63,956 nt of DNA from Minisyncoccota bacterium (GTDB taxonomy: Bacteria; Patescibacteriota; Minisyncoccia; Phycocordibacterales; Phycocordibacteraceae). Under the pieces are notes generated by a model, which made no database searches, was not told the origin of the DNA, and saw only the letters and a program-made list of their open reading frames with translations. The translations under genes were made by a program, and so were the position numbers. Within the stretch, counting starts at the first letter, position 1, and each line of letters starts with the position of its first letter. Shown in pieces: positions 6,792 to 16,268 of the stretch. Where the stretch lies: the NCBI GenBank assembly GCA_036399335.1, contig DASWNF010000002.1, forward strand, positions 1 to 63,956. Direction: 5' to 3'.

Positions 6792-6823
6792 TTCCCCAGT
6801 ATACCAATTCCCTGTGCGGGCAG

Positions 6824-6852
6824 TTGCTGAAATCGCCCATACGGCCTAGAAT
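6824..6852 (+). promoter_or_regulatory. sigma70-like promoter for tRNA-Asn
   Basis: TTGCTG (6824-6829), 17-nt spacer, TAGAAT (6847-6852), about 35 nt upstream of the tRNA. Confidence 0.45.
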
Positions 6853-6886
6853 AACGAAGCTCCGGTGCAACCCGGGGCGGTTACAT

Positions 6887-6958
6887 TCCGCGGTAGCTCA
6901 GCGGTAGAGCGGTCGACTGTTAATCGATTGGTCGTAGGTTCGAATCCTACCCGCGGAG
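6887..6958 (+). tRNA. tRNA-Asn (anticodon GTT)
   Basis: Cloverleaf folded by hand. Acceptor TCCGCGG/CCGCGGA, D arm GCTC-AGCGGTA-GAGC, anticodon arm GTCGA-CTGTTAA-TCGAT, T arm GTAGG-TTCGAAT-CCTAC, discriminator G. CCA is not encoded. Confidence 0.9.
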
Positions 6959-6968
6959 CAAAGTTGGA

Positions 6969-7005
6969 CGAACCGGTACAAAAGTGCCGGTTTCGTCTTT
7001 ATTTG
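6969..7005 (+). terminator. probable terminator after tRNA-Asn
   Basis: Imperfect hairpin CGAACCGGTAC-AAAA-GTGCCGGTTTCG followed by TCTTTATTT. Confidence 0.45.
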
Positions 7006-7017
7006 CATCACTAAATC

Positions 7018-7130
7018 TAGGTTCGAACGCTTCGTTTACTTACTTGGCCTCGAGGAGACCCTCTTCAAGAGCCAAGAACACTTCTTTGTTTAAAAAAATG
7101 ATTTTCTTACCCACCTAATGTTAGGTTCGA
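7018..7130 (+). repeat. two extra copies of the tRNA-Asn T-arm segment
   Basis: TAGGTTCGAA (7018-7027) and TAGGTTCGA (7122-7130) are identical to tRNA positions 6935-6944. Confidence 0.6.
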
Positions 7131-7249
7131 GGAGAGTCGATAGTGTATCTCATTTCTTCATGGCTACCGCTACGGAATGTTTCGGCCAGCCCGACTACCA
7201 GATTAAAGCCTTCTTAGTCCCCTTCCAGCGGCTTCTCCCCAGCCTGTTT

Positions 7250-7498
7250 CTAGGCCTTAATTTCTTCCCTAAGAAATGACAGCCCATTTTCGTGCCCTTC
7301 ACCGGTGGTTGCGTATACGTCTAAGTGAACCGCTTGTGTAAAAATACTGTCTCCCTTCGTAACCCACTTTTCAGCGACTTTTGATGTCCATTTCTGTACA
7401 TCCTCGTCAGACAAATCTCGAATGCCGAGACTATCCCAAAGATATTCGTGCGAAGCGCACGCCAGAATAGTGGTTTGCATTGTTCCGTCGTCAGACAC
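7250..7498 (-). CDS. small hypothetical protein, or detached C-terminal piece of the upstream DUF3800-like gene
   Basis: 82-aa ORF with GTG at 7498 (ATG at 7480). It begins 5 nt after the DUF3800-like stop, in a different frame. Low GC. Confidence 0.4.
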   Translation of the reverse strand: MSDDGTMQTTILACASHEYLWDSLGIRDLSDEDVQKWTSKVAEKWVTKGDSIFTQAVHLDVYATTGEGHENGLSFLREEIKA

Positions 7499-7503
7499 AA
7501 GAA

Positions 7504-8112
7504 TTATACGCCCCCAGTAGGTGTCCCTAGCTGACTGAACTCGTTAGTCATCTGTATGACAGGATAAACTATGCGTTCGAGAGAGAAACGACCAGCTCCA
7601 CTAGGGAAAATACTAAAGCAGTGCTCGTCCATATAGGATTTGAGTGAGTCGGCATACCGATCTGCGAAGACCATGCCGAGTGTATTTCCTTCACGAAGAA
7701 AGTGATTGAAGCGGCGGAGAGCCGCGTTGAGTGCATACTCTTGAGTTCGTATATGCAGAGTCGGATTTATACGAGCCTTACCGAGAGCGAGACCCACAAA
7801 AGTGCGCTTAATGTAGAACTCCTGCGGACTTAAGCAGACGATGATTTTCGCTCCCGATTGAGCGAACAGATCGAGCACTCGATCCTTTATCTGCCGATGA
7901 ACGTCGGATGGCAAAGCGGACTCCGCGCCGAAACGTTCGTTGTTCCACTTTATCGGTCGCTCCCTAGCAACACCAAACTCGCGCTTAATGGCGAGAACCC
8001 CCTGAGCCAACGGTCTGATCTCATTCTCGGGAACTACTATGCCGCCATAAATGAAAAAGCCGAGCTTATCGTCGTGCGACACATTGCACTCATCAACTAC
8101 ATAAAGCCTCAT
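7504..8112 (-). CDS. DUF3800-like protein
   Basis: N-terminus MRLYVVDECNVSHDDKLGFFIYGGIVV...IKWNN resembles the DUF3800 signature (h-h-DE-s-g ... f-h-h-GG-h-h ... K). 202 aa, low GC. Confidence 0.55.
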   Translation of the reverse strand: MRLYVVDECNVSHDDKLGFFIYGGIVVPENEIRPLAQGVLAIKREFGVARERPIKWNNERFGAESALPSDVHRQIKDRVLDLFAQSGAKIIVCLSPQEFYIKRTFVGLALGKARINPTLHIRTQEYALNAALRRFNHFLREGNTLGMVFADRYADSLKSYMDEHCFSIFPSGAGRFSLERIVYPVIQMTNEFSQLGTPTGGV

Positions 8113-8141
8113 AATGTGGCTTTATTTGAACATAGAACGCC

Positions 8142-8170
8142 TTGAGACAACAGTGCAGACGTGTTTTACT
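8142..8170 (+). promoter_or_regulatory. possible promoter giving a leaderless Beta-like transcript
   Basis: TTGAGA (8142-8147), 17 nt, TTTACT (8165-8170). The ATG at 8177 lies about 7 nt downstream with no SD sequence. The -10 is weak. Confidence 0.25.
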
Positions 8171-8176
8171 AATGTT

Positions 8177-9229
8177 ATGACCGACAGAACCTATTTCCCC
8201 ATCCTGAAAGGCAAGGCAGGCGAGCTAGGAGCCGTTGAAGAGCTCTACGATGACGTAAAGGCCGTAATTGCCCCTATTATCGAAATCACCGATGTTCCGT
8301 GGGATTTTCAGGCCGAGGATTATGCCAAGACGCCTGAGAAGCATATTGATGCTTTCGTAGAGAGTCTCGCCAAGAAGCTCATTGGAATTCCCTTCTACGT
8401 AGACCTTCCCGAGAGTCTTTGGGATGCAGAACTGGAGGACGGAACGCATCCACTTGCGCGTGTTTTCGCAGGAATACGAGAGAATGGTCTTGATGGCCGA
8501 CCTGTTATTGGTGCAGATCGTCCGACCGAATACTCGGATGTTGTGAAGGCTATCGCGGAGACCGACGGCAAGGGACTATGCTTCCGTCTTTCACCAGAGA
8601 AAGCAAACGCGGAGAACATAAACGGACTTCTCTCGCTATTTGAAGTGAAGCCCGTCGATATCGACCTGCTCATAGACTTCGAATTCATCACGCCAACTCC
8701 TGATGTCTACCTCTTGGCTTTCAAGGGAGTGTTCGTGGCGCTTCCCAGTCGAGACGAATGGCGCAACATCATTTTCGGTGCGACTGCGTTCCCCAAGGAT
8801 CTGAGTGATATTCAGAGTGGCACAAACACTATTCCCCGGAGTGAGTGGGCGACGTGGAAAAAGATTACTGCTGAGGCAAATATGGCGGGAGTAAAATTTG
8901 CGGACTATGCAATCTCACATCCACAGATTGTAATCATGGACCCGCGCATCATGACCATGAGTGCAAATATTCGCTACACCACCGACGAAGACTGGATGAT
9001 CCTTAAGGGTAGAGGTGTGAAGAAGCACGGATTCGGTCAGTTTACGGAGCACTGTGAGACGCTTATTAAATCAACCGCGTACAAGGGAGAAAGTTTTAGC
9101 GCAGGCGACAAAATCATCAAGGAATGTTCCCTTAAGAAACTCGGTCCCGGTAACGCAACCGTGTGGCGCAAGGTCGGTGTGAACCACCACCTTACGCTGG
9201 TGAAGTCGCAGATCGCCAACCCTGCCTAG
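8177..9229 (+). CDS. Beta_protein / sce7725-like family protein
   Basis: MTDRTYFPILKGKAGELGAVEEL matches the characteristic N-terminus (Y-x-P-I-L-K-x-K-x-G-E-x-x-A-L) of Beta protein (PF14350-type) family members. About 350 aa, as expected. Confidence 0.55.
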   Translation: MTDRTYFPILKGKAGELGAVEELYDDVKAVIAPIIEITDVPWDFQAEDYAKTPEKHIDAFVESLAKKLIGIPFYVDLPESLWDAELEDGTHPLARVFAGIRENGLDGRPVIGADRPTEYSDVVKAIAETDGKGLCFRLSPEKANAENINGLLSLFEVKPVDIDLLIDFEFITPTPDVYLLAFKGVFVALPSRDEWRNIIFGATAFPKDLSDIQSGTNTIPRSEWATWKKITAEANMAGVKFADYAISHPQIVIMDPRIMTMSANIRYTTDEDWMILKGRGVKKHGFGQFTEHCETLIKSTAYKGESFSAGDKIIKECSLKKLGPGNATVWRKVGVNHHLTLVKSQIANPA

Positions 9230-9857
9230 CTTTTAAGGTTTCTCTAACGTATCGATTGATCTCTGAGGGAGAAGTCTCTGTAGCCAAGTGATCCCATAGA
9301 ACACGTCGAGGCTTGTTCTCCATCCCTTGAGCTTTTCCAAGCGTCCGCAGAATATTGATAGTCTCATCACGCCAAAGGAGTTGAACGAGGGAGTATGGAT
9401 CAACAGTTTTGTTAACCTTCGCGGACCGAATGGGCTTCACTTTCGGCTGACCCTTCGCATCAGCGTAAATGAGTGTGATTCCACACCATGCTGGGATTTT
9501 TAATTGAACAGATTCGAGATGTTTCTTTCCTACAACGAACGTAAGCCGGTCGAAAATCTTTTCGTACACAGATAGCTGAACATCAACTCGTTCCAAGGTA
9601 TCCAAATCACTCTTAATCTCGTACCCATGTACCTGTCCGTTCAATACGGCAACATCAATGCGAGCACTCCCCTGACAAAGACCGAGTTCGTCCAGGATGA
9701 GACACGTTGGGTCATCCAAGACGAACTTCTTTGTGGAGAGATTGCTCTTGAGGGCAGAACGGAAATCTCGATCTCTAAGGTCCATAAGTCTTTTACATTG
9801 TATAAGTGAATTATGCAGCATATCCCTCGATATCCCCACTAGCTTAGGTGAAGCCAT
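9192..9857 (-). CDS. sce7726-like PD-(D/E)xK nuclease-fold protein
   Basis: ILDELGLCQGSARIDVAVLNGQVHGYEIKSDLDTLERVDVQLSVYEKIFD carries E...D...ExK restriction-endonuclease-like motifs. The start is uncertain (9857, 9821 or 9785). The 3' end overlaps the Beta-like gene by 38 nt. Confidence 0.5.
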   Translation of the reverse strand: MASPKLVGISRDMLHNSLIQCKRLMDLRDRDFRSALKSNLSTKKFVLDDPTCLILDELGLCQGSARIDVAVLNGQVHGYEIKSDLDTLERVDVQLSVYEKIFDRLTFVVGKKHLESVQLKIPAWCGITLIYADAKGQPKVKPIRSAKVNKTVDPYSLVQLLWRDETINILRTLGKAQGMENKPRRVLWDHLATETSPSEINRYVRETLKARQGWRSATSPA

Positions 9858-10050
9858 AGACAGTGGGCACTTATATACGAGTTGCAGTAAAAACTAACTA
9901 GCTAGGCATCTCGCTCGGTGGTTAAAGGTGAACGTTGTCCTAACTTCATCTGGCATGAGTAGCTAGACTTGACTTTAGATAAGAAATATAGTTCGATATA
10001 AGTAAGCCCTAACCGGCTTACTGTCCTTCACATATTCACGGAGGTGCGCC

Positions 10051-10656
10051 ATGGAAGCGCTGACACTGACTCTTGGAGTGGGGGCGGCGCTCTTGAGCGG
10101 CGTCGCCTACGTGATCTACAACGTTCAGACCAGGCTGGGACACTCGTGCCCCAACGCCGTGAGCTGGAGCATCTGGGCGTTCCTTTCAACGCTCAATGCC
10201 CTGTCGTATCGGGAAATGACCGATGACTGGGTATCGACGCTCCAGTTCGTGACGGGTGCCGTCGCCTGCATCCTCACCTTCCTCTACGCTCTGTTCAGCG
10301 GGAAGTTCGCGTGGCCAAAGCCGCGTGAGTGGGTGGTGTTCGCTCTCGGCGCAATCGCCGTTCTCGTCTGGTGGAAATACCAGAGCGCGACGGCGGCGAG
10401 CGTCATCGTCATCACCGCCTTCATGGTTTCCTTCATCCCCACTTATGAGGGGGTGATCAAGGATCCCTATAAGGAGTCGCCGATGGCCTGGGTGCTCTGG
10501 ACGATCGTCTTTGCCGTGGGAGCACTCATCGTGGTGCTGCGCGACAAGGAGCCGATCGCCCTGCTGAACCCGATCCTTCTTGCGATTTCGCACGGGGGCG
10601 TTGCTCTGCTTTCGACAAGAAAGCGGAAAGCGCGCTTTCCCAAGCCCACGATCTGA
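10051..10656 (+). CDS. polytopic membrane protein (about 6-7 TM), unknown family
   Basis: GGAGG lies 7 nt upstream of the ATG. Hydrophobic segments run throughout. This is a high-GC block inside the island. Confidence 0.6.
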   Translation: MEALTLTLGVGAALLSGVAYVIYNVQTRLGHSCPNAVSWSIWAFLSTLNALSYREMTDDWVSTLQFVTGAVACILTFLYALFSGKFAWPKPREWVVFALGAIAVLVWWKYQSATAASVIVITAFMVSFIPTYEGVIKDPYKESPMAWVLWTIVFAVGALIVVLRDKEPIALLNPILLAISHGGVALLSTRKRKARFPKPTI

Positions 10657-10996
10657 ACATCTGGCTTAGCCCGAATTAGCCACGGGAGCCCCGCACCAGT
10701 TGCGGGGCTACTACTTTGTATACAGAGTTAACGCAACTCAGCCTGTGAGGCTCTTGACACTACTATTCTAACGTAGCATTATTGTAGCGGAGGCTGGCAG
10801 TGCGCCAGTCATCCCTTCAGTGAGAAGGAGAAGAAAGATGTTTGGCAGAAGGATAATGGTAAGGAGGCGTGACCGAAAGGGTTTTGAGGAGGCGCGATAT
10901 CGTCTTCTCCCGCTTTGCTTGGAAAGAGGCCTGCGGTTAGTCCAAAGGCCCGCGGGAATTAAGGCCAGTGAGGCGGGAGCCACACTTTTGCCCGAC

Positions 10997-11374
10997 ATGA
11001 GATTCGATCCCCAGTCGGGGCTTCGTGTCGGCCAACTGATCGACGACTTTTTCGGTTACCTGGTCCCTTGGGGACTCCAGGCGGCCGAAAATCACCCGGT
11101 CAAGCCCGACTACCGGGGTCAGTGGATCTCGCGTGAGGTTTACCTCCTCTGCTTCGTGAGAGTCCCCTTCATAGGCAAATGTCCTGTGGAAGGCATGTAC
11201 GCGGTCCTGGCCCGCACTCCGCGCGAGCCGACGAAGTCCCCGCAACATTTCACAACCGACGTGGGCCTCTGGGGCGACGGAGATTTTCGCGACGTGGATC
11301 GGGAGAAGGGCCCATCGAAGGTGCTCCTCTATCCCGCAAGTGCCCTTCGGGCACGAAAATCGCGGAAGCGTTGA
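10997..11374 (+). CDS. hypothetical protein
   Basis: Third-position GC becomes high from the ATG at 10997 (MRFDPQSGLRVGQLIDDFFGY...). The upstream part of ORF 10820..11374 looks non-coding. Confidence 0.35.
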   Translation: MRFDPQSGLRVGQLIDDFFGYLVPWGLQAAENHPVKPDYRGQWISREVYLLCFVRVPFIGKCPVEGMYAVLARTPREPTKSPQHFTTDVGLWGDGDFRDVDREKGPSKVLLYPASALRARKSRKR

Positions 11375-11518
11375 ATTGGCGGCCGCAGGTACGAGGTTTC
11401 ATCCCTCTGCCTGCGGCTTTTTCGTTTAAATCAGGGTTCTGACTTCGTGCAGCATGCGGAGCAGGGCAAGACAAAAGGACTCGAAAGAGCCCTTTTGTCG
11501 TTTCCTTGCGGGACGAAT

Positions 11519-12046
11519 TTATTCCCTAGCTAGTGCGAAATCTTGGTATTCAGATTCGTCTGTAATGAGTGATACTACACCGCCACCGGACTCGATGATT
11601 TCAACTTCGCCTGTCTGTTTATTGATAGTAAAGATGTGCCCCGCCTCCCCTTCAAGAGTGAGTTGTTGAGGCGTGTTGCTAGTAATGGTTAGCGGTTCCC
11701 TTCCAAAGCTTCGTAGGGACATAGACGAAAGCCGCGTTAACTCTTCAAAAATGAATAGCTGTTTGCCATTTGTATCGTAATCGTTTGTAGCTTCAATAGT
11801 GTAGTACTGCCAAAATTGTTTCGGTTGTTCTTCGTAGCTTGGAAACTTCACAAACCCCGTAATACTTCCAACAGCGTTATTTCCGTTAAATACCATTGCC
11901 GACTCAAGGTGGATATGCGGAATGGCTTGCTCGTACTTCTGCGCATAATAGAGCTCTTGCTTCTGATGGAAGACAATAATCAGTAAAGCCATCAAAATAA
12001 TTATAATCAGACTCAAAATCTTGTTACTGCGAGACAGACTTTTCAT
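11519..12046 (-). CDS. membrane-anchored/secreted hypothetical protein
   Basis: N-terminal signal anchor KILSLIIIILMALLIIVF. Low GC (about 40%). Confidence 0.55.
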   Translation of the reverse strand: MKSLSRSNKILSLIIIILMALLIIVFHQKQELYYAQKYEQAIPHIHLESAMVFNGNNAVGSITGFVKFPSYEEQPKQFWQYYTIEATNDYDTNGKQLFIFEELTRLSSMSLRSFGREPLTITSNTPQQLTLEGEAGHIFTINKQTGEVEIIESGGGVVSLITDESEYQDFALARE

Positions 12047-12155
12047 GCGTATATGTTACCCCAACCGTGCCCTCACGGTGTTTTTAGCAAACAATTGCTG
12101 ACAAATCTTGTTTTTGTACTACTCTATCTCCAGAGTCTGATTAGGGAGATATGTC

Positions 12156-12620
12156 GTGCTTATGCTACCAACCCCTAGGCGAGTATCCGCTCGCCCGCTG
12201 GTCACGGTATGCGGGAGCTTCAATAGGCATCTCGCAGAAATCAAACTGGCGGTAGAGGAGCTCTTTGACTACGGCGCAGTCGTGCTTTCGCCGGAGCGTC
12301 CAGTCTCAGTGAGTCGGGAGTTTGCTCCTGGCTTCCTGCTGCTCGATAGTGACCTTCGCTTCAAGAAACTCTCGGTACGCGCCGTAGAGGACCGGCACCT
12401 TGCCGCCATTATGAAATCCGATTTCGTCGTCCTGGTGTGTCCGGACGGGTATCTCGGATGCGCCGTCGCAGGCGAGATGGGTGCGGCGCGCGCCGTCAAT
12501 GTTCCGCTGTACGCCGAACACACGCCCATAGACGACAAACTCGGGCCGTACGTCTATCGCGTTCCAAGCTTGCAGCTTGCCGTCGCCAATCACCGTATCC
12601 ACACGCTTCCAACCGCCTAA
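12156..12620 (+). CDS. hypothetical protein, tentatively nucleoside 2-deoxyribosyltransferase-like Rossmann fold
   Basis: VTVCGSFNRHLAEI...GAVVLSPE and DFVVLVCPDGYLGCAVAGEMGAA resemble the GSF/acidic-residue pattern of NDT-superfamily proteins. GGGAGA lies upstream. Confidence 0.35.
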   Translation: MLMLPTPRRVSARPLVTVCGSFNRHLAEIKLAVEELFDYGAVVLSPERPVSVSREFAPGFLLLDSDLRFKKLSVRAVEDRHLAAIMKSDFVVLVCPDGYLGCAVAGEMGAARAVNVPLYAEHTPIDDKLGPYVYRVPSLQLAVANHRIHTLPTA

Positions 12621-12640
12621 CTGAAAGTTCTGTTAGGCGG
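12613..12640. terminator. bidirectional hairpin between convergent genes
   Basis: CCGCCTAAC (12613-12621) / GTTAGGCGG (12632-12640), followed by TTGTCTTT. Confidence 0.5.
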
Positions 12641-12646
12641 TTGTCT

Positions 12647-13564
12647 TTACTTACTGGCCGAAATAAGTTGACGCAAGGCTGGCTCAAGCTGCACGGCATG
12701 TGCAGATCCGTATACAGCAAACAAGTGATCGTGCTCCTTCATGCCATCAGCAATGCGGCCTAGAATATACTCATTTCGATACTGACTGGATGCTTGTGAG
12801 ATGTCATTAATAACGGTCCCGTCCCTACCCTCCCAAGGTATGGGATCAACTTGCTCTCGATACTTGCCCTCCGCATGTAATTCAAGTTCGTTGGCAAGTT
12901 GCTTCTCAAATCCGGCGAGCTCGTCAGCACTCCAACCGCTCTCATCACGAAATCGCCCGAAGTTGTCTTTTAAATAATCGATGCAGGCGCTATCACTCCG
13001 GTCTTCCTTTGCTCGCTGCTGGTAACCCGAAATCTGCCTGTAGGCATAGAACATAAAGATATCTCTTTTTGAATAACCCAGACTCTGGAGTAGCTTAAGT
13101 TCTTCTTTGAAAGACGGTTCGGGGGACTCGAAATCTACGCCTGCATCAATAGCTAACTTCAAGAGAAAGTAGTTCTCCCCGCGACTTCGCGCCTCTTCTT
13201 GCGACACCTTGACCGCCTGTTCCCGTACACTCTCCTTCTGCGCGTTAATTCTCTCCAAACCCTCTACATATACAATGTCAGGGCGATTCGTTTCGAAGCG
13301 ACTAGCGATCTCCTCAAACTGAGGATCACGAGGATCATAAAGGTGTGAGGCTCCAAAGAATTCTAGGTGCTTGGCTCCATTAGTGACTTCAACGACGTAT
13401 GACCGGGCATCGGGATCTGAGGCGAAAGGGTGATCGCGGTACTGCTCGTGGGTAAGGATAAGCGACTTCAAGCGCTTTAACTCAGTTACTTCTAGGTGAT
13501 TCTTCTCAGGCTGCGGCCACTCGTTCATAGCTCCTATTGTAGCCCAGTGCTCCGGTTCGTACAC
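12647..13564 (-). CDS. TraB/GumN-like family protein
   Basis: HLEFFGASHLYD...RPDIVYVEGLER near the N-terminus and LFAVYGSAHAV near the C-terminus mirror the TraB/GumN pattern (GTxH ... PD-h-h-h-h-E ... GxGH). Confidence 0.45.
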   Translation of the reverse strand: MYEPEHWATIGAMNEWPQPEKNHLEVTELKRLKSLILTHEQYRDHPFASDPDARSYVVEVTNGAKHLEFFGASHLYDPRDPQFEEIASRFETNRPDIVYVEGLERINAQKESVREQAVKVSQEEARSRGENYFLLKLAIDAGVDFESPEPSFKEELKLLQSLGYSKRDIFMFYAYRQISGYQQRAKEDRSDSACIDYLKDNFGRFRDESGWSADELAGFEKQLANELELHAEGKYREQVDPIPWEGRDGTVINDISQASSQYRNEYILGRIADGMKEHDHLFAVYGSAHAVQLEPALRQLISASK

Positions 13565-13575
13565 TGTTTCACTAC

Positions 13576-13588
13576 GTTCAAATTCCTA
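13576..13588 (+). repeat. degenerate copy of the tRNA-Asn 3' segment (possible island right border)
   Basis: GTTCAAATTCCTA versus tRNA GTTCGAATCCTA (6938-6949): one substitution plus a 1-nt insertion. Confidence 0.3.
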
Positions 13589-13680
13589 TAACTCAACAGC
13601 TTTTTAGTTGCCTCAGTATGTAATCAAGAGGAGAATAGATTCCAGCTCAATCAAGAGTCGGAAAACAGCCCATGCTGGGC

Positions 13681-13728
13681 TATAAAAAATGAAGGGGCAC
13701 GATTGGCGTGAACGCAAACCGTGCCCCT
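13681..13728 (-). terminator. rho-independent terminator
   Basis: AAGGGGCACG (13691-13700) / CGTGCCCCTT (13719-13728). A T6 run follows on the minus strand, 3' of gene 13748..14008. Confidence 0.6.
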
Positions 13729-13747
13729 TGAATTGTCGCCAACCGCA

Positions 13748-14008
13748 TTACCGCATGAGCTCCTCAACCTCCTCCTGGCTGATTTCCCGGAACATGATGC
13801 AGCGCTGTTCGTCGTCGGGTTCGCAACAGCCGCATTTGAAGTCGTCCTCCCATGCCACGTGCTGCCCGTTAGGAAGCCTGAAGACGTGGGCATAGCAGTT
13901 CCCTAGAGGGAGGATGCAGCCTAGGTCGAAGCTGTTCGGCAGGTTGTATCCGGAACGCACCTGTTGGGGACGCGGCGGGAGAATGCTGCAGGTGTGGGTG
14001 CCGGTCAT
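13748..14008 (-). CDS. small Cys-rich hypothetical protein
   Basis: 86 aa with very high GC3. Cys cluster FKCGCCEPDDEQRC. Its ATG overlaps the upstream stop (ATGA). Confidence 0.55.
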   Translation of the reverse strand: MTGTHTCSILPPRPQQVRSGYNLPNSFDLGCILPLGNCYAHVFRLPNGQHVAWEDDFKCGCCEPDDEQRCIMFREISQEEVEELMR

Positions 14009-14319
14009 GCCTCACTCTCCATTGCTTCAGCAAGACCCACCGGGTACCGGGGTATCCCAGAAGAGTCATTCCTGTTGTCGAGAAGTATCGCCGCAAACAG
14101 GTTTGCAATGGCTTCCCGCGTATGCGGACTTCTGCCACCACCACCTGAAGTCGAACAAAACTCCACTTGCGCCTTATTCCCGTTGTGGTCCTCAATCGGA
14201 ATTCCGTCCTCGTCGATGCAAAGGACAAAGTCGCCGTCCGGGTGAAATTCAATGCGAAGCGAAAGCTTCTGCTGGCTCATTTCGTCATGCCTGCCAGCCA
14301 TTCTGACGTCCCAAGCCAT
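14005..14319 (-). CDS. hypothetical protein
   Basis: ATG at 14319 preceded by AGGAG (the longer ORF begins with TTG at 14376). Translationally coupled to the Cys-rich gene. Confidence 0.5.
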   Translation of the reverse strand: MAWDVRMAGRHDEMSQQKLSLRIEFHPDGDFVLCIDEDGIPIEDHNGNKAQVEFCSTSGGGGRSPHTREAIANLFAAILLDNRNDSSGIPRYPVGLAEAMESEA

Positions 14320-14440
14320 TTCACACTCCTGTGCGTTGCCTGACGGAATACTCTCACGGGCGCTAGCGTCGCACAAGAACCTTCCATAAGGCCTTAAGCA
14401 GGCTTTAACAGTGCACGAGAACTACATTCCCTCTAATAAA

Positions 14441-15238
14441 TTACTGGGAAAGAGTCCAGGTGGTTCCTCGTATGGGGAACGCGCCGGTAAAGGTGACGTC
14501 TTTTGCCGAGAGTGAGGTAACGTCAATCTTCAATCCCGTACCGACATATGCAGAGATATCAGGTCCCATCGTAGCTTTGATCGTAAAGAGCCGTACCTGC
14601 CCTGGCAGGAAGAGTGAGTCAGTGGGGGCAAAGGCCACCCCATTACTAAAGGGAGCCGATCCGCTTGTCTCGCCCCTTGAGCCGCCCTTATCGTCTACGG
14701 TTGAGAGCTTGGTAACGGTGCGCGTCGGCGCGTTGCCATTCTGCTTTACCCAAAAGCCTTTGAGGCGCGCTGCGTGCGGGCCTCGGTTCACTATCTTGAG
14801 ATACGAAAGCGGCACCGTCTCTCCAGCCCTCACCTCGCCACCCACGAGGAGCGGGACAGCCGATACGGAGAATGTTGCCGTACCCTCTTCTACTACTGCG
14901 GGCGTGGTTACCGTAGTTACGGTCGTAACCGTAGTGACGGTAGTCGGCGGCGCTACCGGCGCTGGTGGGGGTGTGGGGGTAACTGCACGCTTTGGCGGCG
15001 CGACTGCGGGCTTGCTGGGGACGTCCTTTGGAGTAGTCGTTGCGGCTGGCACCGTGGTCGTGGCTACGGGCGTAGTGGTAGCTACATCATTTACCTCTTG
15101 TTCAGGGAGTGTGACTTCGGTAACGGCCGTGATGCTGCACGGCAGCGCAAGCGAGCAGCGGACCTTTTCGAAACTTAGTGATAGGCCTGCAAGGACAATA
15201 AGCCCGAGAGCGAGGTATATAAGGGGGCGCGTATGCAT
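14441..15238 (-). CDS. secreted Thr/Pro-rich hypothetical protein
   Basis: Signal/anchor PLIYLALGLIVLAGLSL, a T/P-rich linker with a TTV repeat, and a beta-rich C-terminal domain. Confidence 0.65.
   Translation of the reverse strand: MHTRPLIYLALGLIVLAGLSLSFEKVRCSLALPCSITAVTEVTLPEQEVNDVATTTPVATTTVPAATTTPKDVPSKPAVAPPKRAVTPTPPPAPVAPPTTVTTVTTVTTVTTPAVVEEGTATFSVSAVPLLVGGEVRAGETVPLSYLKIVNRGPHAARLKGFWVKQNGNAPTRTVTKLSTVDDKGGSRGETSGSAPFSNGVAFAPTDSLFLPGQVRLFTIKATMGPDISAYVGTGLKIDVTSLSAKDVTFTGAFPIRGTTWTLSQ
14904..14946. repeat. 9-nt tandem repeat (encodes TTVTTVTTVTTVTT)
   Basis: GGTTACCGTAGTTACGGTCGTAACCGTAGTGACGGTAGT has period 9, inside the 14441..15238 CDS. Confidence 0.8.
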
Positions 15239-15282
15239 TCCCCTTCAGTCTTTCATACAAGGGTAGCCCGCACAACGCATAC

Positions 15283-15318
15283 AAAAGGAAAGCCCCTCGA
15301 AAGAGGGGCTTTCCTTTT
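15283..15318 (-). terminator. rho-independent terminator (symmetrical A/T arms)
   Basis: AAAAGGAAAGCCCCTC-GAAA-GAGGGGCTTTCCTTTT, 3' of the YggT gene. Confidence 0.75.
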
Positions 15319-15327
15319 GCGTCGTCC

Positions 15328-15693
15328 CTACACTACCGGGCCTTCCTGCTGGTCGAGCTTTGCTGCCGCTTCAGGAGTCGACACCGTCTTGCTCATGAGG
15401 AAGAGCTTCACGATGCCCCAGGCGACTATCAGGTAGACGAGCATGGCGAGAAGGGTCGTCCACTCGAACACCGAGCCCGCTACTCGCGTCTTGCCGAAGA
15501 CGGTAGCGAACGGCTGGGTGAACGGCCAGGTTACCGTGTAGACGAAGTACGCGAATCCGGCAGAAGCGTTCGCCGCAAAGGCCTTCAATACGAAACGGAA
15601 GGCAAGTAGGATTTCGAGCAGTCCGAGGACGTACCAGATTACCTGCGTGCTGCGGAAAATCGGCTTTGTCGTAGGAGAGTTATAGGAATCCAT
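15328..15693 (-). CDS. YggT family membrane protein
   Basis: 121 aa. VIWYVLGLLEILLAFRFVLKAF and WTTLLAMLVYLIVAWGIVKL match the two-helix YggT architecture. Confidence 0.6.
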   Translation of the reverse strand: MDSYNSPTTKPIFRSTQVIWYVLGLLEILLAFRFVLKAFAANASAGFAYFVYTVTWPFTQPFATVFGKTRVAGSVFEWTTLLAMLVYLIVAWGIVKLFLMSKTVSTPEAAAKLDQQEGPVV

Positions 15694-15791
15694 GTGAGTA
15701 GGTTATGAGGGCTATTGGTGAAGTGTAGCACCTGCTGAGCCCCTCTAGGGGGAACCGGGCGTAAACTTGCTGGAGCCTGCGCTTGAGGACG

Positions 15792-16268
15792 TCAGTTAAG
15801 CACCCAGAAACCGTAGTTCAGATAAGCCGCAAAACTCACCCAAAGAATATACGGGACAAGAAGCGCGGCAGCCGTTCGAGAAACCTTTGCGAAGGCGATC
15901 ATCGTGGCGAGTATGGCTATCCAAAGCACGGCAATTTCGACAAGTGCTGCACCGGGGTTCCTGAGGCCAAAAAAGATAATCGACCAGGACGTATTAAGTA
16001 CGAGCTGTCCCGCGAATAGGGCAAGTGCGATGCGGACGTCCCTGCGCCCCATCCCCTTTTTCCATACGAGGAATGCTGCAATGCCCATAAGCGCAAAGAG
16101 GGTCGTCCACACCGGGCCGAATACCCAGCTTGACGGGGCTAGTGGCGGACGCACCAGGGTGAGGTACCAGGAATCTACCGCCGATACCGTGAACACTGAG
16201 CCAATTATTCCGGCAAGCTCCGAGACTGCTATCGCCGCAGCTAGTTTTACGTAGTCTCCAAAGATCAT
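15792..16268 (-). CDS. tspO: TspO/MBR tryptophan-rich sensory protein
   Basis: PSSWVFGPVWTTLFALMGIAAFLVW, QLVLNTSWSIIFFG and LLVPYILWVSFAAYLNY are classic TspO motifs. 158 aa. Confidence 0.85.
   Translation of the reverse strand: MIFGDYVKLAAAIAVSELAGIIGSVFTVSAVDSWYLTLVRPPLAPSSWVFGPVWTTLFALMGIAAFLVWKKGMGRRDVRIALALFAGQLVLNTSWSIIFFGLRNPGAALVEIAVLWIAILATMIAFAKVSRTAAALLVPYILWVSFAAYLNYGFWVLN

What the first reader, a model, noticed from the sequence alone, without database searches (positions are those of the whole stretch)
7250..9857. Candidate undescribed conflict/defence cassette: DUF3800-like + Beta/sce7725-like + sce7726-like PD-(D/E)xK nuclease
What the sequence shows:
- Three to four low-GC genes sit tightly together right after tRNA-Asn.
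- (i) 7504-8112(-) starts MRLYVVDECNVS...FFIYGGIVV...IKWNN, which is DUF3800-like.
- (ii) 8177-9229(+) is transcribed divergently and starts MTDRTYFPILKGKAGELGAVEEL, the hallmark N-terminus of Beta_protein/sce7725-type proteins.
- (iii) 9192-9857(-) converges on (ii) and carries ILDELG...RIDVAVL...HGYEIKSD, a restriction-endonuclease-like E/D-ExK core as in sce7726-type proteins.
- (iv) An 82-aa ORF trails the DUF3800-like gene.

What is established: sce7725/sce7726 pairs are catalogued only as function-unknown two-gene cassettes. To my knowledge no activity has been shown for them, nor for a combination with DUF3800.

Inference: the island location, the foreign composition and the nuclease fold fit an anti-phage or anti-MGE module with an enzymatic or sensor partner. 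That would be unusual in what looks like a reduced genome.
Basis: partly seen in the sequence, partly recalled or inferred. Interest (0 to 1): 0.8.

Follow-up and report, generated by a model that had tools for sequence, protein, structure and literature searches.

The report
Phage P4-type beta–cII module, decayed island
Next to a tRNA gene sits the leftover of a mobile element: an intact copy of a two-gene pair (a barrel-shaped "Beta" protein and a nuclease-like "cII" protein) already known from phage P4 and from tested anti-phage systems, beside a third gene broken by a deletion, so this is an ordinary new copy of a known but mechanistically unsolved module.

Summary
All four ORFs, the tRNA-Asn and the low GC are real. 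The cassette is not undescribed.

- **Two intact genes.** ORF (ii) is a full-length Pfam Beta_protein and matches PADLOC PD-Lambda-2_C and 'beta'. ORF (iii) is an sce7726 / Phage_P4_cII protein with an invariant E…D…ExK motif, and it matches PADLOC 'cll'. These are the β and cII genes of phage P4, arranged convergently as in P4.
- **Prior experiments.** gop-β-cII protects against λ and P1 (Rousset 2022). The Beta protein PD-λ-2C is required for defence (Vassallo 2022).
- **Linkage.** 76 of 80 genomic cII loci and 26 of 28 viral Beta loci carry the pair. In 100 of 102 pairs the 3' ends overlap.
- **Missing partners.** The window has no gop and no PD-λ-2A/B.
- **ORFs (i) and (iv).** These are the two sides of a ~270-bp deletion through a separate DUF3800-like + small-gene module. 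The DUF3800-like gene has lost its C-terminal third, including the QxxD motif. It accompanies Beta/cII only in this groundwater lineage (0 of 108 other loci).
- **Setting.** Intact relatives carry a serine recombinase, which the window has lost, so this is a decayed island.

Mechanism is inferred: the cII nuclease is the effector and Beta the sensor or regulator. Interest is low to moderate.

The parts
6887..6959 (+). tRNA-Asn (GTT), left border of the low-GC island
   Evidence: ARAGORN; Rfam tRNA, 74 bits. A terminator-like hairpin lies at 6970-6993. No tRNA-derived direct repeat was found within 6800-16000.
7250..7531 (-). Remnant of a small (~105-aa) partner gene of the DUF3800-like gene. 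The first ~13 codons and the native start are deleted. The listed 82-aa ORF (7250-7498) begins at an internal GTG.
   Evidence: The frame from 7531 to 7250 aligns to residues 13-103 of the L008 105-aa protein (52% identity), to L091's 104-aa protein (61%) and to L005's 110-aa protein (49%).
7528..7529 (.). Deletion junction. About 270 bp present in relatives (L008 2473-2746) is missing here.
   Evidence: MAFFT DNA alignment of the window against L008. All 7 homologues plus L091's copy are 267-273 aa long.
7504..8112 (-). DUF3800-like gene, 3'-truncated. Residues 1-194 are homologous, followed by 8 out-of-frame residues and a stop. It keeps the N-terminal DE motif and has lost the C-terminal QxxD motif. 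Probable pseudogene.
   Evidence: tblastn of homologues stops at 7528. Alignment A3. The window copy has no Pfam hit, whereas 7 of 8 family members hit PF12686. PADLOC PDC-M04A gives a weak N-terminal match. Motif definition from PMC7736814.
8113..8176 (.). 64-bp divergent intergenic spacer between the DUF3800-like gene and Beta
   Evidence: Coordinates. Collinear with L008. No sigma-70 consensus match here.
8177..9229 (+). Beta-family protein (P4 β / PD-λ-2C type), 350 aa, intact, with a TIM-barrel-like predicted fold
   Evidence: PF14350 7e-75, full length. PADLOC PD-Lambda-2_C 2e-53 and 'beta' 9e-10. 21% identity to P4 β over the full length. AF2 pLDDT 95.9. Foldseek hits to TIM-barrel enzymes at E ~2e-4, TM 0.35-0.48. 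pN 0.13 against pS 0.88 versus L008.
9192..9229 (.). 38-bp antisense overlap of the 3' ends of Beta and cII, a family-wide feature
   Evidence: The overlap is 26-167 bp in 76 of 76 genomic pairs and 14-104 bp in 24 of 26 viral pairs.
9192..9785 (-). cII / sce7726-family PD-(D/E)xK nuclease-like protein, 197 aa (the ORF is open to 9857, giving 221 aa), intact
   Evidence: NCBIfam sce7726_fam 2e-48, 164.7 bits against a cut-off of 70. PF26915 Phage_P4_cII is precomputed for it. PADLOC 'cll' 4e-29. 28% identity to P4 cII, E 9e-20. E33, D44, E56 and K58 are invariant. AF2 pLDDT 93.8. Foldseek top hit 3dnx, E 3.9e-6.
7000..10000 (.). Low-GC island: remnant of an integrative element that has lost its recombinase
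   Evidence: GC 0.48 against 0.58-0.59 in the flanks; related elements are 0.42-0.43. L091 carries a large serine recombinase next to cII, plus Vsr/Dcm and other element genes. No trace of those genes is found in the window.

Best explanation
The region is the decayed remnant of an integrative mobile element inserted beside tRNA-Asn.

**Shown.**
- It retains one intact functional unit, a convergent and 3'-overlapping gene pair. One gene encodes a Beta-family protein (TIM-barrel-like). The other encodes a cII/sce7726-family protein with a complete PD-(D/E)xK nuclease signature.
- This pair is homologous to β and cII of satellite phage P4 and has the same arrangement.
- Beta also matches component C of PD-λ-2.
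- The pair is a tightly linked two-gene module found across many phyla and in prophages.
- Its accessory genes vary: gop in P4, HigB-like + Xre-peptidase in PD-λ-2-type loci, and none in most loci.
- The neighbouring DUF3800-like gene and its small partner gene form a separate module. In this window a ~270-bp deletion has inactivated that module.

**Inferred mechanism.**
- The pair acts as a toxin–antitoxin-like abortive-infection or exclusion module.
- The cII nuclease is the effector that cuts DNA.
- Beta is the sensing or restraining component. It buffers a toxic partner, as β does for Gop in P4, and it is needed for the response to phage, as PD-λ-2C is.
- The obligate antisense overlap of the two 3' ends may couple their expression.
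- Survival of only this pair in an otherwise eroded element fits a module that is selected for, or is hard to lose.
For: Family placement. P4 locus and annotation: with pairwise homology. Published experiments: gop-β-cII protects against λ and P1, and gop is toxic without β (PMC9122126). A phage gene, orf184, triggers cell death through gop-β-cII (bioRxiv 10.1101/2023.04.06.535777). PD-λ-2C is required for defence but not for toxin neutralisation (PMC9519451). Nuclease signature and fold. Beta fold and conserved polar residues (E16, D167, D243, D311, H338). Linkage and geometry: 76 of 80 genomic loci and 26 of 28 viral loci carry the pair, and 100 of 102 pairs overlap. Variable partners: PD-λ-2B in 26 of 76 loci, PD-λ-2A in at least 10, gop in 0 of 108. 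Purifying selection on both genes. Deletion and separate module. Lost recombinase.
Against: No experiment has tested a Beta+cII pair without gop or PD-λ-2A/B. In P4 the demonstrated toxin is Gop, not cII. In PD-λ-2 the toxin is B, and cII was not part of the defined system. The role of cII is therefore unproven in every studied case. Nuclease activity rests on motif and fold only. The fold match is moderate (TM 0.42/0.54 to 3dnx), and that protein's function is unknown. The Beta fold match is generic (TM below 0.5), so neither an enzymatic nor a sensor role is established. No promoter could be recognised, and expression in this organism is unknown. The host taxon was not identified.
Confidence: 0.6

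Rival explanations
1. One reading: DUF3800-like + Beta + sce7726-like (plus the 82-aa ORF) form one undescribed multi-component defence system that is active in this genome.
For: The four-gene block [small][DUF3800-like][Beta][cII] is conserved in three diverged elements, the window, L008 and L091, at 51-78% amino-acid identity. DUF3800 is an RNase H-like domain found in retron type VII and in Cas12-linked systems. There is a weak PADLOC PDC-M04A match.
Against: In the window the DUF3800-like gene lacks its last ~75 residues, including QxxD, and the small gene lacks its start. The DUF3800-like + small pair occurs without Beta/cII in L005-L007. None of 80 genomic or 28 viral Beta/cII loci has a DUF3800-like gene. 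All three co-occurrences lie on one family of groundwater elements, so the linkage may simply be inherited.
Confidence: 0.07
2. The Beta–cII pair is primarily an addiction (post-segregational killing) module that stabilises prophages and integrative elements, and any anti-phage effect is incidental.
For: The pair sits beside integrases or recombinases in P4, Gordonia phage Powerball, L091, L010, L073 and L086. It is the only intact unit left in a decayed element. P4 gop/β behaves like a toxin–antitoxin pair.
Against: The P4 system protects against λ and P1, and a phage gene triggers it. PD-λ-2C is specifically needed for defence rather than for neutralisation. No stabilisation phenotype is reported in the literature I could search.
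Confidence: 0.18
3. The whole island, including Beta and cII, is a non-functional relic that is intact only because too little time has passed for it to decay.
For: Adjacent genes are already deleted or truncated and the recombinase is gone. No recognisable promoter was found. Three solo cII genes exist elsewhere, showing that the pair can break up.
Against: Both ORFs are full length, with every invariant family residue present. pN is 0.13-0.25 against saturated pS, although most of that divergence predates the decay.
Confidence: 0.1
4. cII is a DNA-repair or recombination nuclease (MmcB-like), or a lysogeny regulator as its P4 name suggests, and Beta is a metabolic TIM-barrel enzyme, neither being related to conflict.
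For: A weak Pfam MmcB-like hit (E 0.035). The best structural match is 3dnx, which I recall as an MmcB-like/DUF1052 structure. Beta's fold hits are aldolase, lyase and synthase barrels.
Against: The strict pairing, the prophage or satellite hotspot location and the association with toxin modules, together with the defence phenotypes of gop-β-cII and PD-λ-2, all argue for a conflict role. The P4 region is non-essential for the P4 life cycle.
Confidence: 0.05

Closest known systems
Phage P4 gop-β-cII (PADLOC gop_beta_cll; I recall the DefenseFinder name as Rst_gop_beta_cll)
   Same: Beta and cII are homologous to P4 β (21% identity, full length) and P4 cII (28% identity, E 9e-20). The geometry is the same: β→ ←cII on a mobile element. 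PADLOC 'beta' and 'cll' models match.
   Different: No gop gene exists anywhere in the window. The Beta and cII 3' ends overlap by 38 bp, whereas P4 has a 28-bp gap with an annotated terminator. The window's cII is 197 aa against 264 aa in P4. Beta is closer to PD-λ-2C than to P4 β.
PD-λ-2 (Vassallo et al. 2022): HigB-like A + Xre-peptidase B + Beta-family C
   Same: The window's Beta is the best PADLOC match to PD-Lambda-2_C (2e-53, near full length). In 26 of 76 genomic loci the same Beta–cII pair sits directly downstream of PD-λ-2B, and PD-λ-2A is present in at least 10.
   Different: The window has neither A nor B. The published three-gene PD-λ-2 definition does not list a cII/sce7726 gene.
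NCBIfam sce7725/sce7726 two-gene cassette
   Same: cII is a clear sce7726_fam member (164.7 bits against a cut-off of 70). It has an adjacent partner whose N-terminus resembles the start of sce7725.
   Different: The partner scores only 20.5 bits against a cut-off of 60 for sce7725_fam. It is a Pfam Beta_protein, which PGAP names 'beta family protein'.
Rac-type prophage β/cII pair of E. coli (phage Rac-SA53 and 93 complete genomes)
   Same: A bare two-gene pair without gop or PD-λ-2A/B, convergent with a 41-bp overlap, annotated 'beta family protein | sce7726 family protein'. Identity to the window is 30% for Beta and 40% for cII.
   Different: Different host phylum and element type. No DUF3800-like neighbour.
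DUF3800 (PF12686) RNase H-like proteins of retron type VII and Cas12a-linked loci; PADLOC PDC-M04A
   Same: The family of ORF (i) matches PF12686 in 7 of 8 members and has the N-terminal DE motif.
   Different: The window copy lacks the C-terminal QxxD motif and a third of the protein. It is not next to a retron RT or a Cas12. The PDC-M04A match covers only ~50 N-terminal residues.

Membership tests
Pfam Beta_protein (PF14350) | Full-length HMM match above the gathering score | tested here: met
   253.1 bits against a cut-off of 27; residues 6-342 match profile positions 1-340 of 342.
NCBIfam sce7725_fam (NF033831) | HMM score of at least 60 bits | tested here: not met
   20.5 bits, over N-terminal residues 6-36 only.
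NCBIfam sce7726_fam (NF033832) / Pfam Phage_P4_cII (PF26915) | HMM score above the cut-off | tested here: met
   164.7 bits against a cut-off of 70, profile positions 2-183 of 184. PF26915 is precomputed for the window's protein P0009 and for all 120 listed homologues. PF26915 is absent from the local Pfam copy.
PD-(D/E)xK nuclease superfamily | Conserved acidic residue(s) plus a (D/E)xK motif | tested here: met
   E33, D44, E56, I57 and K58 are invariant in 52 sequences, in 197-aa numbering.
PD-(D/E)xK nuclease superfamily | Restriction-endonuclease-like fold | tested here: met
   The AF2 model (pLDDT 93.8) has one significant PDB hit, 3dnx (SPO1766), at E 3.9e-6, prob 1.0, TM 0.42/0.54. I recall 3dnx as an MmcB-like PD-(D/E)xK structure, and Pfam gives a weak MmcB-like hit (E 0.035). 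Weaker hits go to splicing endonuclease, XPF, FAAP24 and SduA. Strength is moderate.
PD-(D/E)xK nuclease superfamily | Metal-dependent nuclease activity | not testable with these tools
   Requires biochemistry.
DUF3800 (PF12686) | HMM match for the window's own protein | tested here: not met
   No Pfam hit at E up to 1 for the 202-aa ORF. All 7 full-length homologues do match (best 4.9e-7; P0002 scores 22 bits against a cut-off of 21).
DUF3800 (PF12686) | N-terminal DE motif | tested here: met
   VVDEC at residues 5-9; D7 and E8 are invariant in alignment A3. Motif definition from PMC7736814.
DUF3800 (PF12686) | C-terminal QxxD motif | tested here: not met
   Homologues have L-H-Q-x-N-D immediately after residue 194. 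The window diverges there into GTPTGGV and a stop because of the deletion.
gop-β-cII system (PADLOC gop_beta_cll) | gop gene present | tested here: not met
   P4 Gop matches PADLOC 'gop' at 4.8e-70. No gop-like ORF exists in the 64-kb window, although the HMM was built from a single sequence. The 202-aa ORF against Gop gives E 3.9.
gop-β-cII system (PADLOC gop_beta_cll) | β and cII genes present and convergent | tested here: met
   PADLOC 'beta' 9.3e-10 and 'cll' 4e-29. Geometry as in NC_001609.
PD-λ-2 | Component C (Beta family) | tested here: met
   PD-Lambda-2_C 2e-53, residues 4-347.
PD-λ-2 | Components A (HigB-like) and B (Xre-peptidase) upstream of C | tested here: not met
   The gene upstream of Beta is the divergent DUF3800-like gene. 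An HMM built from 26 PD-λ-2B homologues finds nothing in the window. Component A was judged by gene position only, not by a profile search.
Anti-phage defence system (functional class) | Protection against phage on expression | not testable with these tools
   Shown experimentally only for P4 gop-β-cII and E. coli PD-λ-2, not for a gop-less pair.

The most novel reading that the evidence does not exclude
The Beta–cII(sce7726) pair on its own, without gop or PD-λ-2A/B, is a self-sufficient and very widespread two-gene immune or exclusion module (at least 542 loci among GTDB species representatives). In this reading it is the true conserved core onto which toxins such as Gop or HigB/Xre-peptidase are bolted, and its near-universal antisense 3' overlap acts as a regulatory switch between the TIM-barrel sensor or enzyme and the nuclease effector. 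The published three-gene definitions of gop-β-cII and PD-λ-2 would then describe decorated versions of one larger family, and cII would be an overlooked fourth gene of PD-λ-2-type loci.
Probability: 0.35. Interest if true: 0.55.

Novelty: new member of a known kind. Interest (0 to 1): 0.3.

Why it matters
For this window, the result replaces an apparent new three-family defence system with something ordinary. It is another copy of the P4-type β–cII pair on a decayed mobile element, with a broken neighbouring gene.

The wider comparison is of some value. The two proteins are almost never separated: 102 of 108 loci carry both (of the 6 exceptions, 2 are cut by a contig end). Their genes nearly always overlap tail to tail. 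The two named systems that contain Beta (gop-β-cII and PD-λ-2) look like variants built on this common core. The biochemical roles of Beta and cII are still unknown, so a minimal natural two-gene version is a convenient starting point for working them out. It also shows that candidate-phyla-radiation-type genomes do carry this module.

Tried and rejected
1. **Gop replacement.** ORF (i) against P4 Gop gives no similarity (E 3.9).
2. **Missing DUF3800 C-terminus encoded elsewhere or in another frame.** tblastn of four homologues against the whole window finds nothing beyond 7528.
3. **82-aa ORF as the detached C-terminus of ORF (i).** Rejected: it is homologous to the next gene, the 105-aa protein of L008.
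4. **att site.** No tRNA-Asn-derived direct repeat lies within 6800-16000.
5. **Sequence search of PDB** for Beta and cII found nothing significant.
6. **sce7725-type partner.** The three Beta-less cII loci (L053, L087, L088) are solo cII genes with no partner.
7. **Other defence genes in the window's flanks.** No PADLOC hits, and several flank ORFs have no Pfam hit.
8. **Small partner of the DUF3800-like gene as a PADLOC PDC-M04 component.** No hit.
9. **Promoter scan.** Fewer sites than expected from shuffled sequence.
10. **Host taxon.** 90%-identity cluster names returned nothing.
11. **Literature.** The 2026 preprint mentioning a '2TM-β family protein' is unrelated. Ghisotti et al. 1990 is not held. 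No mechanistic paper on Beta or cII turned up.
12. **Rfam.** Only the two tRNAs, and no DUF3800-associated RNA motif.


Full report
**1. Observation.**

tRNA-Asn lies at 6887-6959. The block 7000-9900 has 48.1% GC, against 59.1% upstream and 57.5% downstream. Beta (8177-9229, +) and the nuclease-like gene (9192-9857, -) converge and overlap by 38 bp. Gene callers and the family's typical length (189-197 aa) favour Met25 as the start of the nuclease-like gene, giving 9192-9785 and 197 aa. The window comes from JGI metagenome 3300034138, contig Ga0334955_000062, 91.4 kb.

**2. Identity of the two intact genes.**

ORF (ii) is a full-length Pfam Beta_protein (7e-75). It reaches only 20.5 bits against NCBIfam sce7725_fam, whose cut-off is 60. 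ORF (iii) is a clear sce7726_fam member (2e-48, 164.7 bits against 70). It and all 120 listed homologues carry PF26915 'Phage_P4_cII'.

In PADLOC, ORF (ii) matches PD-Lambda-2_C (2e-53) and 'beta' (9e-10), and ORF (iii) matches 'cll' (4e-29). The RefSeq record of satellite phage P4 explains these names. It lists gop (133 aa, +), then beta (355 aa, +, 'beta family protein'), then cII (264 aa, -, annotated 'sce7726 family protein'), next to the integrase. Direct comparison confirms homology: Beta against P4 β is 21% identical over the full length, and cII against P4 cII is 28% identical with E 9e-20.

So the 'Beta/sce7725-like + sce7726-like' pair is the β–cII pair of P4, in the same convergent arrangement.

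**3. What is already known.**

- Rousset et al. [quoted passage not shown] They cite Ghisotti 1990 for gop being toxic without β (PMC9122126).
- A 2023 preprint shows that a phage accessory gene, orf184, triggers cell death through gop-β-cII.
- Vassallo et al. 2022 describe PD-λ-2 as a HigB-like A, a toxic Xre-peptidase B and a C 'related to a P4 phage antitoxin'. C is not needed to neutralise B but is required for defence (PMC9519451).
- PGAP annotates a Rac-type prophage copy of the pair as 'beta family protein | sce7726 family protein' in 93 complete E. coli genomes.

I found no mechanistic study of either protein.

**4. Structure and motifs.**

For cII, E33, D44 and E56-I57-K58 are invariant in 52 diverse homologues. 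The AlphaFold model is confident (pLDDT 93.8). Its only significant PDB match is 3dnx (SPO1766; E 3.9e-6), which I recall as an MmcB-like PD-(D/E)xK structure. Weaker hits go to other nucleases of that fold. This agrees with the weak Pfam MmcB-like hit.

For Beta, the model has pLDDT 95.9 with alternating β/α elements. It matches TIM-barrel enzymes only generically (E ~2e-4, TM 0.35-0.48). Invariant polar residues (Y6, E16, D167, D243, Y244, Y267, D311, H338) suggest a catalytic or ligand-binding pocket. Neither protein has a solved relative detectable by sequence.

**5. Linkage across genomes.**

A scan of GTDB species representatives with the cII alignment found at least 542 relatives, and I analysed the best 80 loci, which span many phyla.

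- 76 of the 80 have a Beta gene, always convergent. One exception is cut by a contig end and three are solo cII genes.
- All 76 pairs overlap at their 3' ends by 26-167 bp, with a median of 56 bp.
- Starting instead from Beta in viral contigs, 26 of 28 loci have the convergent cII, and 24 of those 26 overlap.
- Phages Rac-SA53, Powerball, DumpsterDude and Mycofy1 show the same arrangement.
- P4 itself is atypical, with a 28-bp gap and an annotated terminator.

**6. Variable partners.**

In 26 of the 76 loci the gene directly upstream of Beta is an HTH + Peptidase_M78 fusion with an invariant HExxH. Of these, 24 match PD-Lambda-2_B (best 1.3e-159). In 10 of 18 tested loci the next gene upstream matches PD-Lambda-2_A. 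Gop was found in none of the 108 loci, although the gop HMM was built from a single sequence. In the remaining loci the neighbours are heterogeneous. Six loci, including ones labelled Saccharibacteria or Patescibacteria, have a large serine recombinase beside cII. The window has no gop and no PD-λ-2B anywhere.

**7. The DUF3800-like gene and the 82-aa ORF.**

Homologues of ORF (i) are 267-273 aa long. The window's protein matches only residues 1-194 and then reads eight unrelated residues and a stop. The closest relative, L008, has the same layout with an intact 268-aa gene followed by a 105-aa gene.

Base-level alignment shows that the window lacks L008 positions 2473-2746. That removes the last ~75 codons of the first gene and the first ~13 codons of the second. 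The 82-aa ORF is the remnant of that second gene (49-61% identity to its homologues).

The family is DUF3800: 7 of 8 members hit PF12686, and the only non-hit is the truncated window copy. DUF3800 is defined by an N-terminal DE motif and a C-terminal QxxD motif, and it is RNase H-like. The window keeps DE but has lost QxxD, which lies just past the junction.

The DUF3800-like + small-gene pair also occurs without Beta/cII (L005-L007). It is absent from all 108 other Beta/cII loci. It accompanies Beta/cII only in three related groundwater elements: the window, L008 and L091. I therefore treat it as a separate neighbouring module that is inactivated here.

**8. The island.**

L091 shows the fuller element: small gene, DUF3800-like, Beta, cII, a large serine recombinase, then Vsr/Dcm and replication-type genes, at 42% GC. 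The window holds no trace of the recombinase or of the other element genes. It has no tRNA-derived direct repeat and no other PADLOC hits nearby.

Beta and cII remain full length with all invariant residues. Against relatives they show pN of 0.13-0.25 with saturated pS of 0.78-0.90. This fits a decayed island whose only intact unit is the Beta–cII pair.

**9. Mechanism (inference).**

I commit to a toxin–antitoxin-like abortive-infection or exclusion module:

- cII is the nuclease effector.
- Beta is the sensing or restraining partner.
- The antisense 3' overlap may couple their expression.

This extrapolates from β buffering Gop in P4 and from PD-λ-2C being needed for the phage response. It is not demonstrated for any gop-less pair. 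In the studied systems the proven toxins are Gop and PD-λ-2B, not cII. An element-addiction role is the main rival.

**10. Verdict.**

The claims of an undescribed system, of no known activity, of DUF3800 partnership and of sce7725 membership are wrong. The locus is a new member of a known kind, a gop-less P4-type β–cII pair. It does not meet the three-gene definitions of gop-β-cII or PD-λ-2. Residual interest lies in the unknown biochemistry of the pair, the conserved tail-to-tail overlap and the possibility that the pair is the common core of two named systems.

Noticed in passing
window 9192-9229; loci L010-L089 and L094-L121: The Beta and cII genes overlap tail to tail in 100 of 102 pairs examined (14-167 bp; 38 bp in the window). 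P4 itself instead has a 28-bp gap with a terminator. Such constant antisense 3' overlap suggests coupled or mutually interfering expression. I found no description of it in the papers searched.
   Followed up: partly
L011-L086 (26 loci, e.g. L073:7623-8840, L086:4219-5433): In about a third of genomic Beta/cII loci the pair sits directly downstream of PD-λ-2B (Xre + M78 peptidase; 24 of 26 match, best 1.3e-159). PD-λ-2A (HigB-like) was found in 10 of 18 tested. PD-λ-2-type operons therefore commonly carry a convergent sce7726/cII nuclease gene that the published three-gene definition does not list.
   Followed up: partly
L005:7516-9139, L006, L007; L008:1892-3025; L091:6802-7937: The DUF3800-like (~270 aa) gene plus a ~105-110-aa gene form a conserved pair of unknown function. 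In L005-L007 a 157-aa protein with a hydrophobic N-terminus precedes them. The small partner has no PADLOC hit.
   Followed up: partly
L091:1-12896 (Hainich groundwater, GCA_964364215.1): An apparently complete integrative element carries the four-gene block next to a 529-aa large serine recombinase. It also holds Vsr + Dcm methylase, a DnaA_C/HTH protein and a 696-aa protein with no family hit. It is the likely intact form of the island that has decayed in the window.
   Followed up: partly
L053:6004-6657, L087:5995-6564, L088:5995-6564: Solo cII/sce7726 genes with no Beta partner (a Selenomonadaceae MAG and two Obscuribacterales MAGs). These are exceptions to the otherwise strict pairing, and it is unclear whether they are remnants or work alone.
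   Followed up: no
window 11500-13500: A second low-GC patch (0.43-0.53) holds ORFs with no Pfam or PADLOC hits (11519-12046(-), 12156-12620(+), 12647-13564(-)). It may be further foreign DNA to the right of the island.
   Followed up: partly
window 7528/7529 versus L008 2466-2750: In L008 both edges of the deleted segment contain the short sequence CCAG, which would fit a microhomology-mediated deletion. This is speculative, because the window's own ancestor is unknown.
   Followed up: no
window 8114-8176: The Beta ORF is open from an ATG at 8114, two bases from the divergent DUF3800-like start at 8112. Gene callers and all homologues support 8177, which leaves only a 64-bp divergent spacer with no recognisable sigma-70 promoter.
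   Followed up: partly
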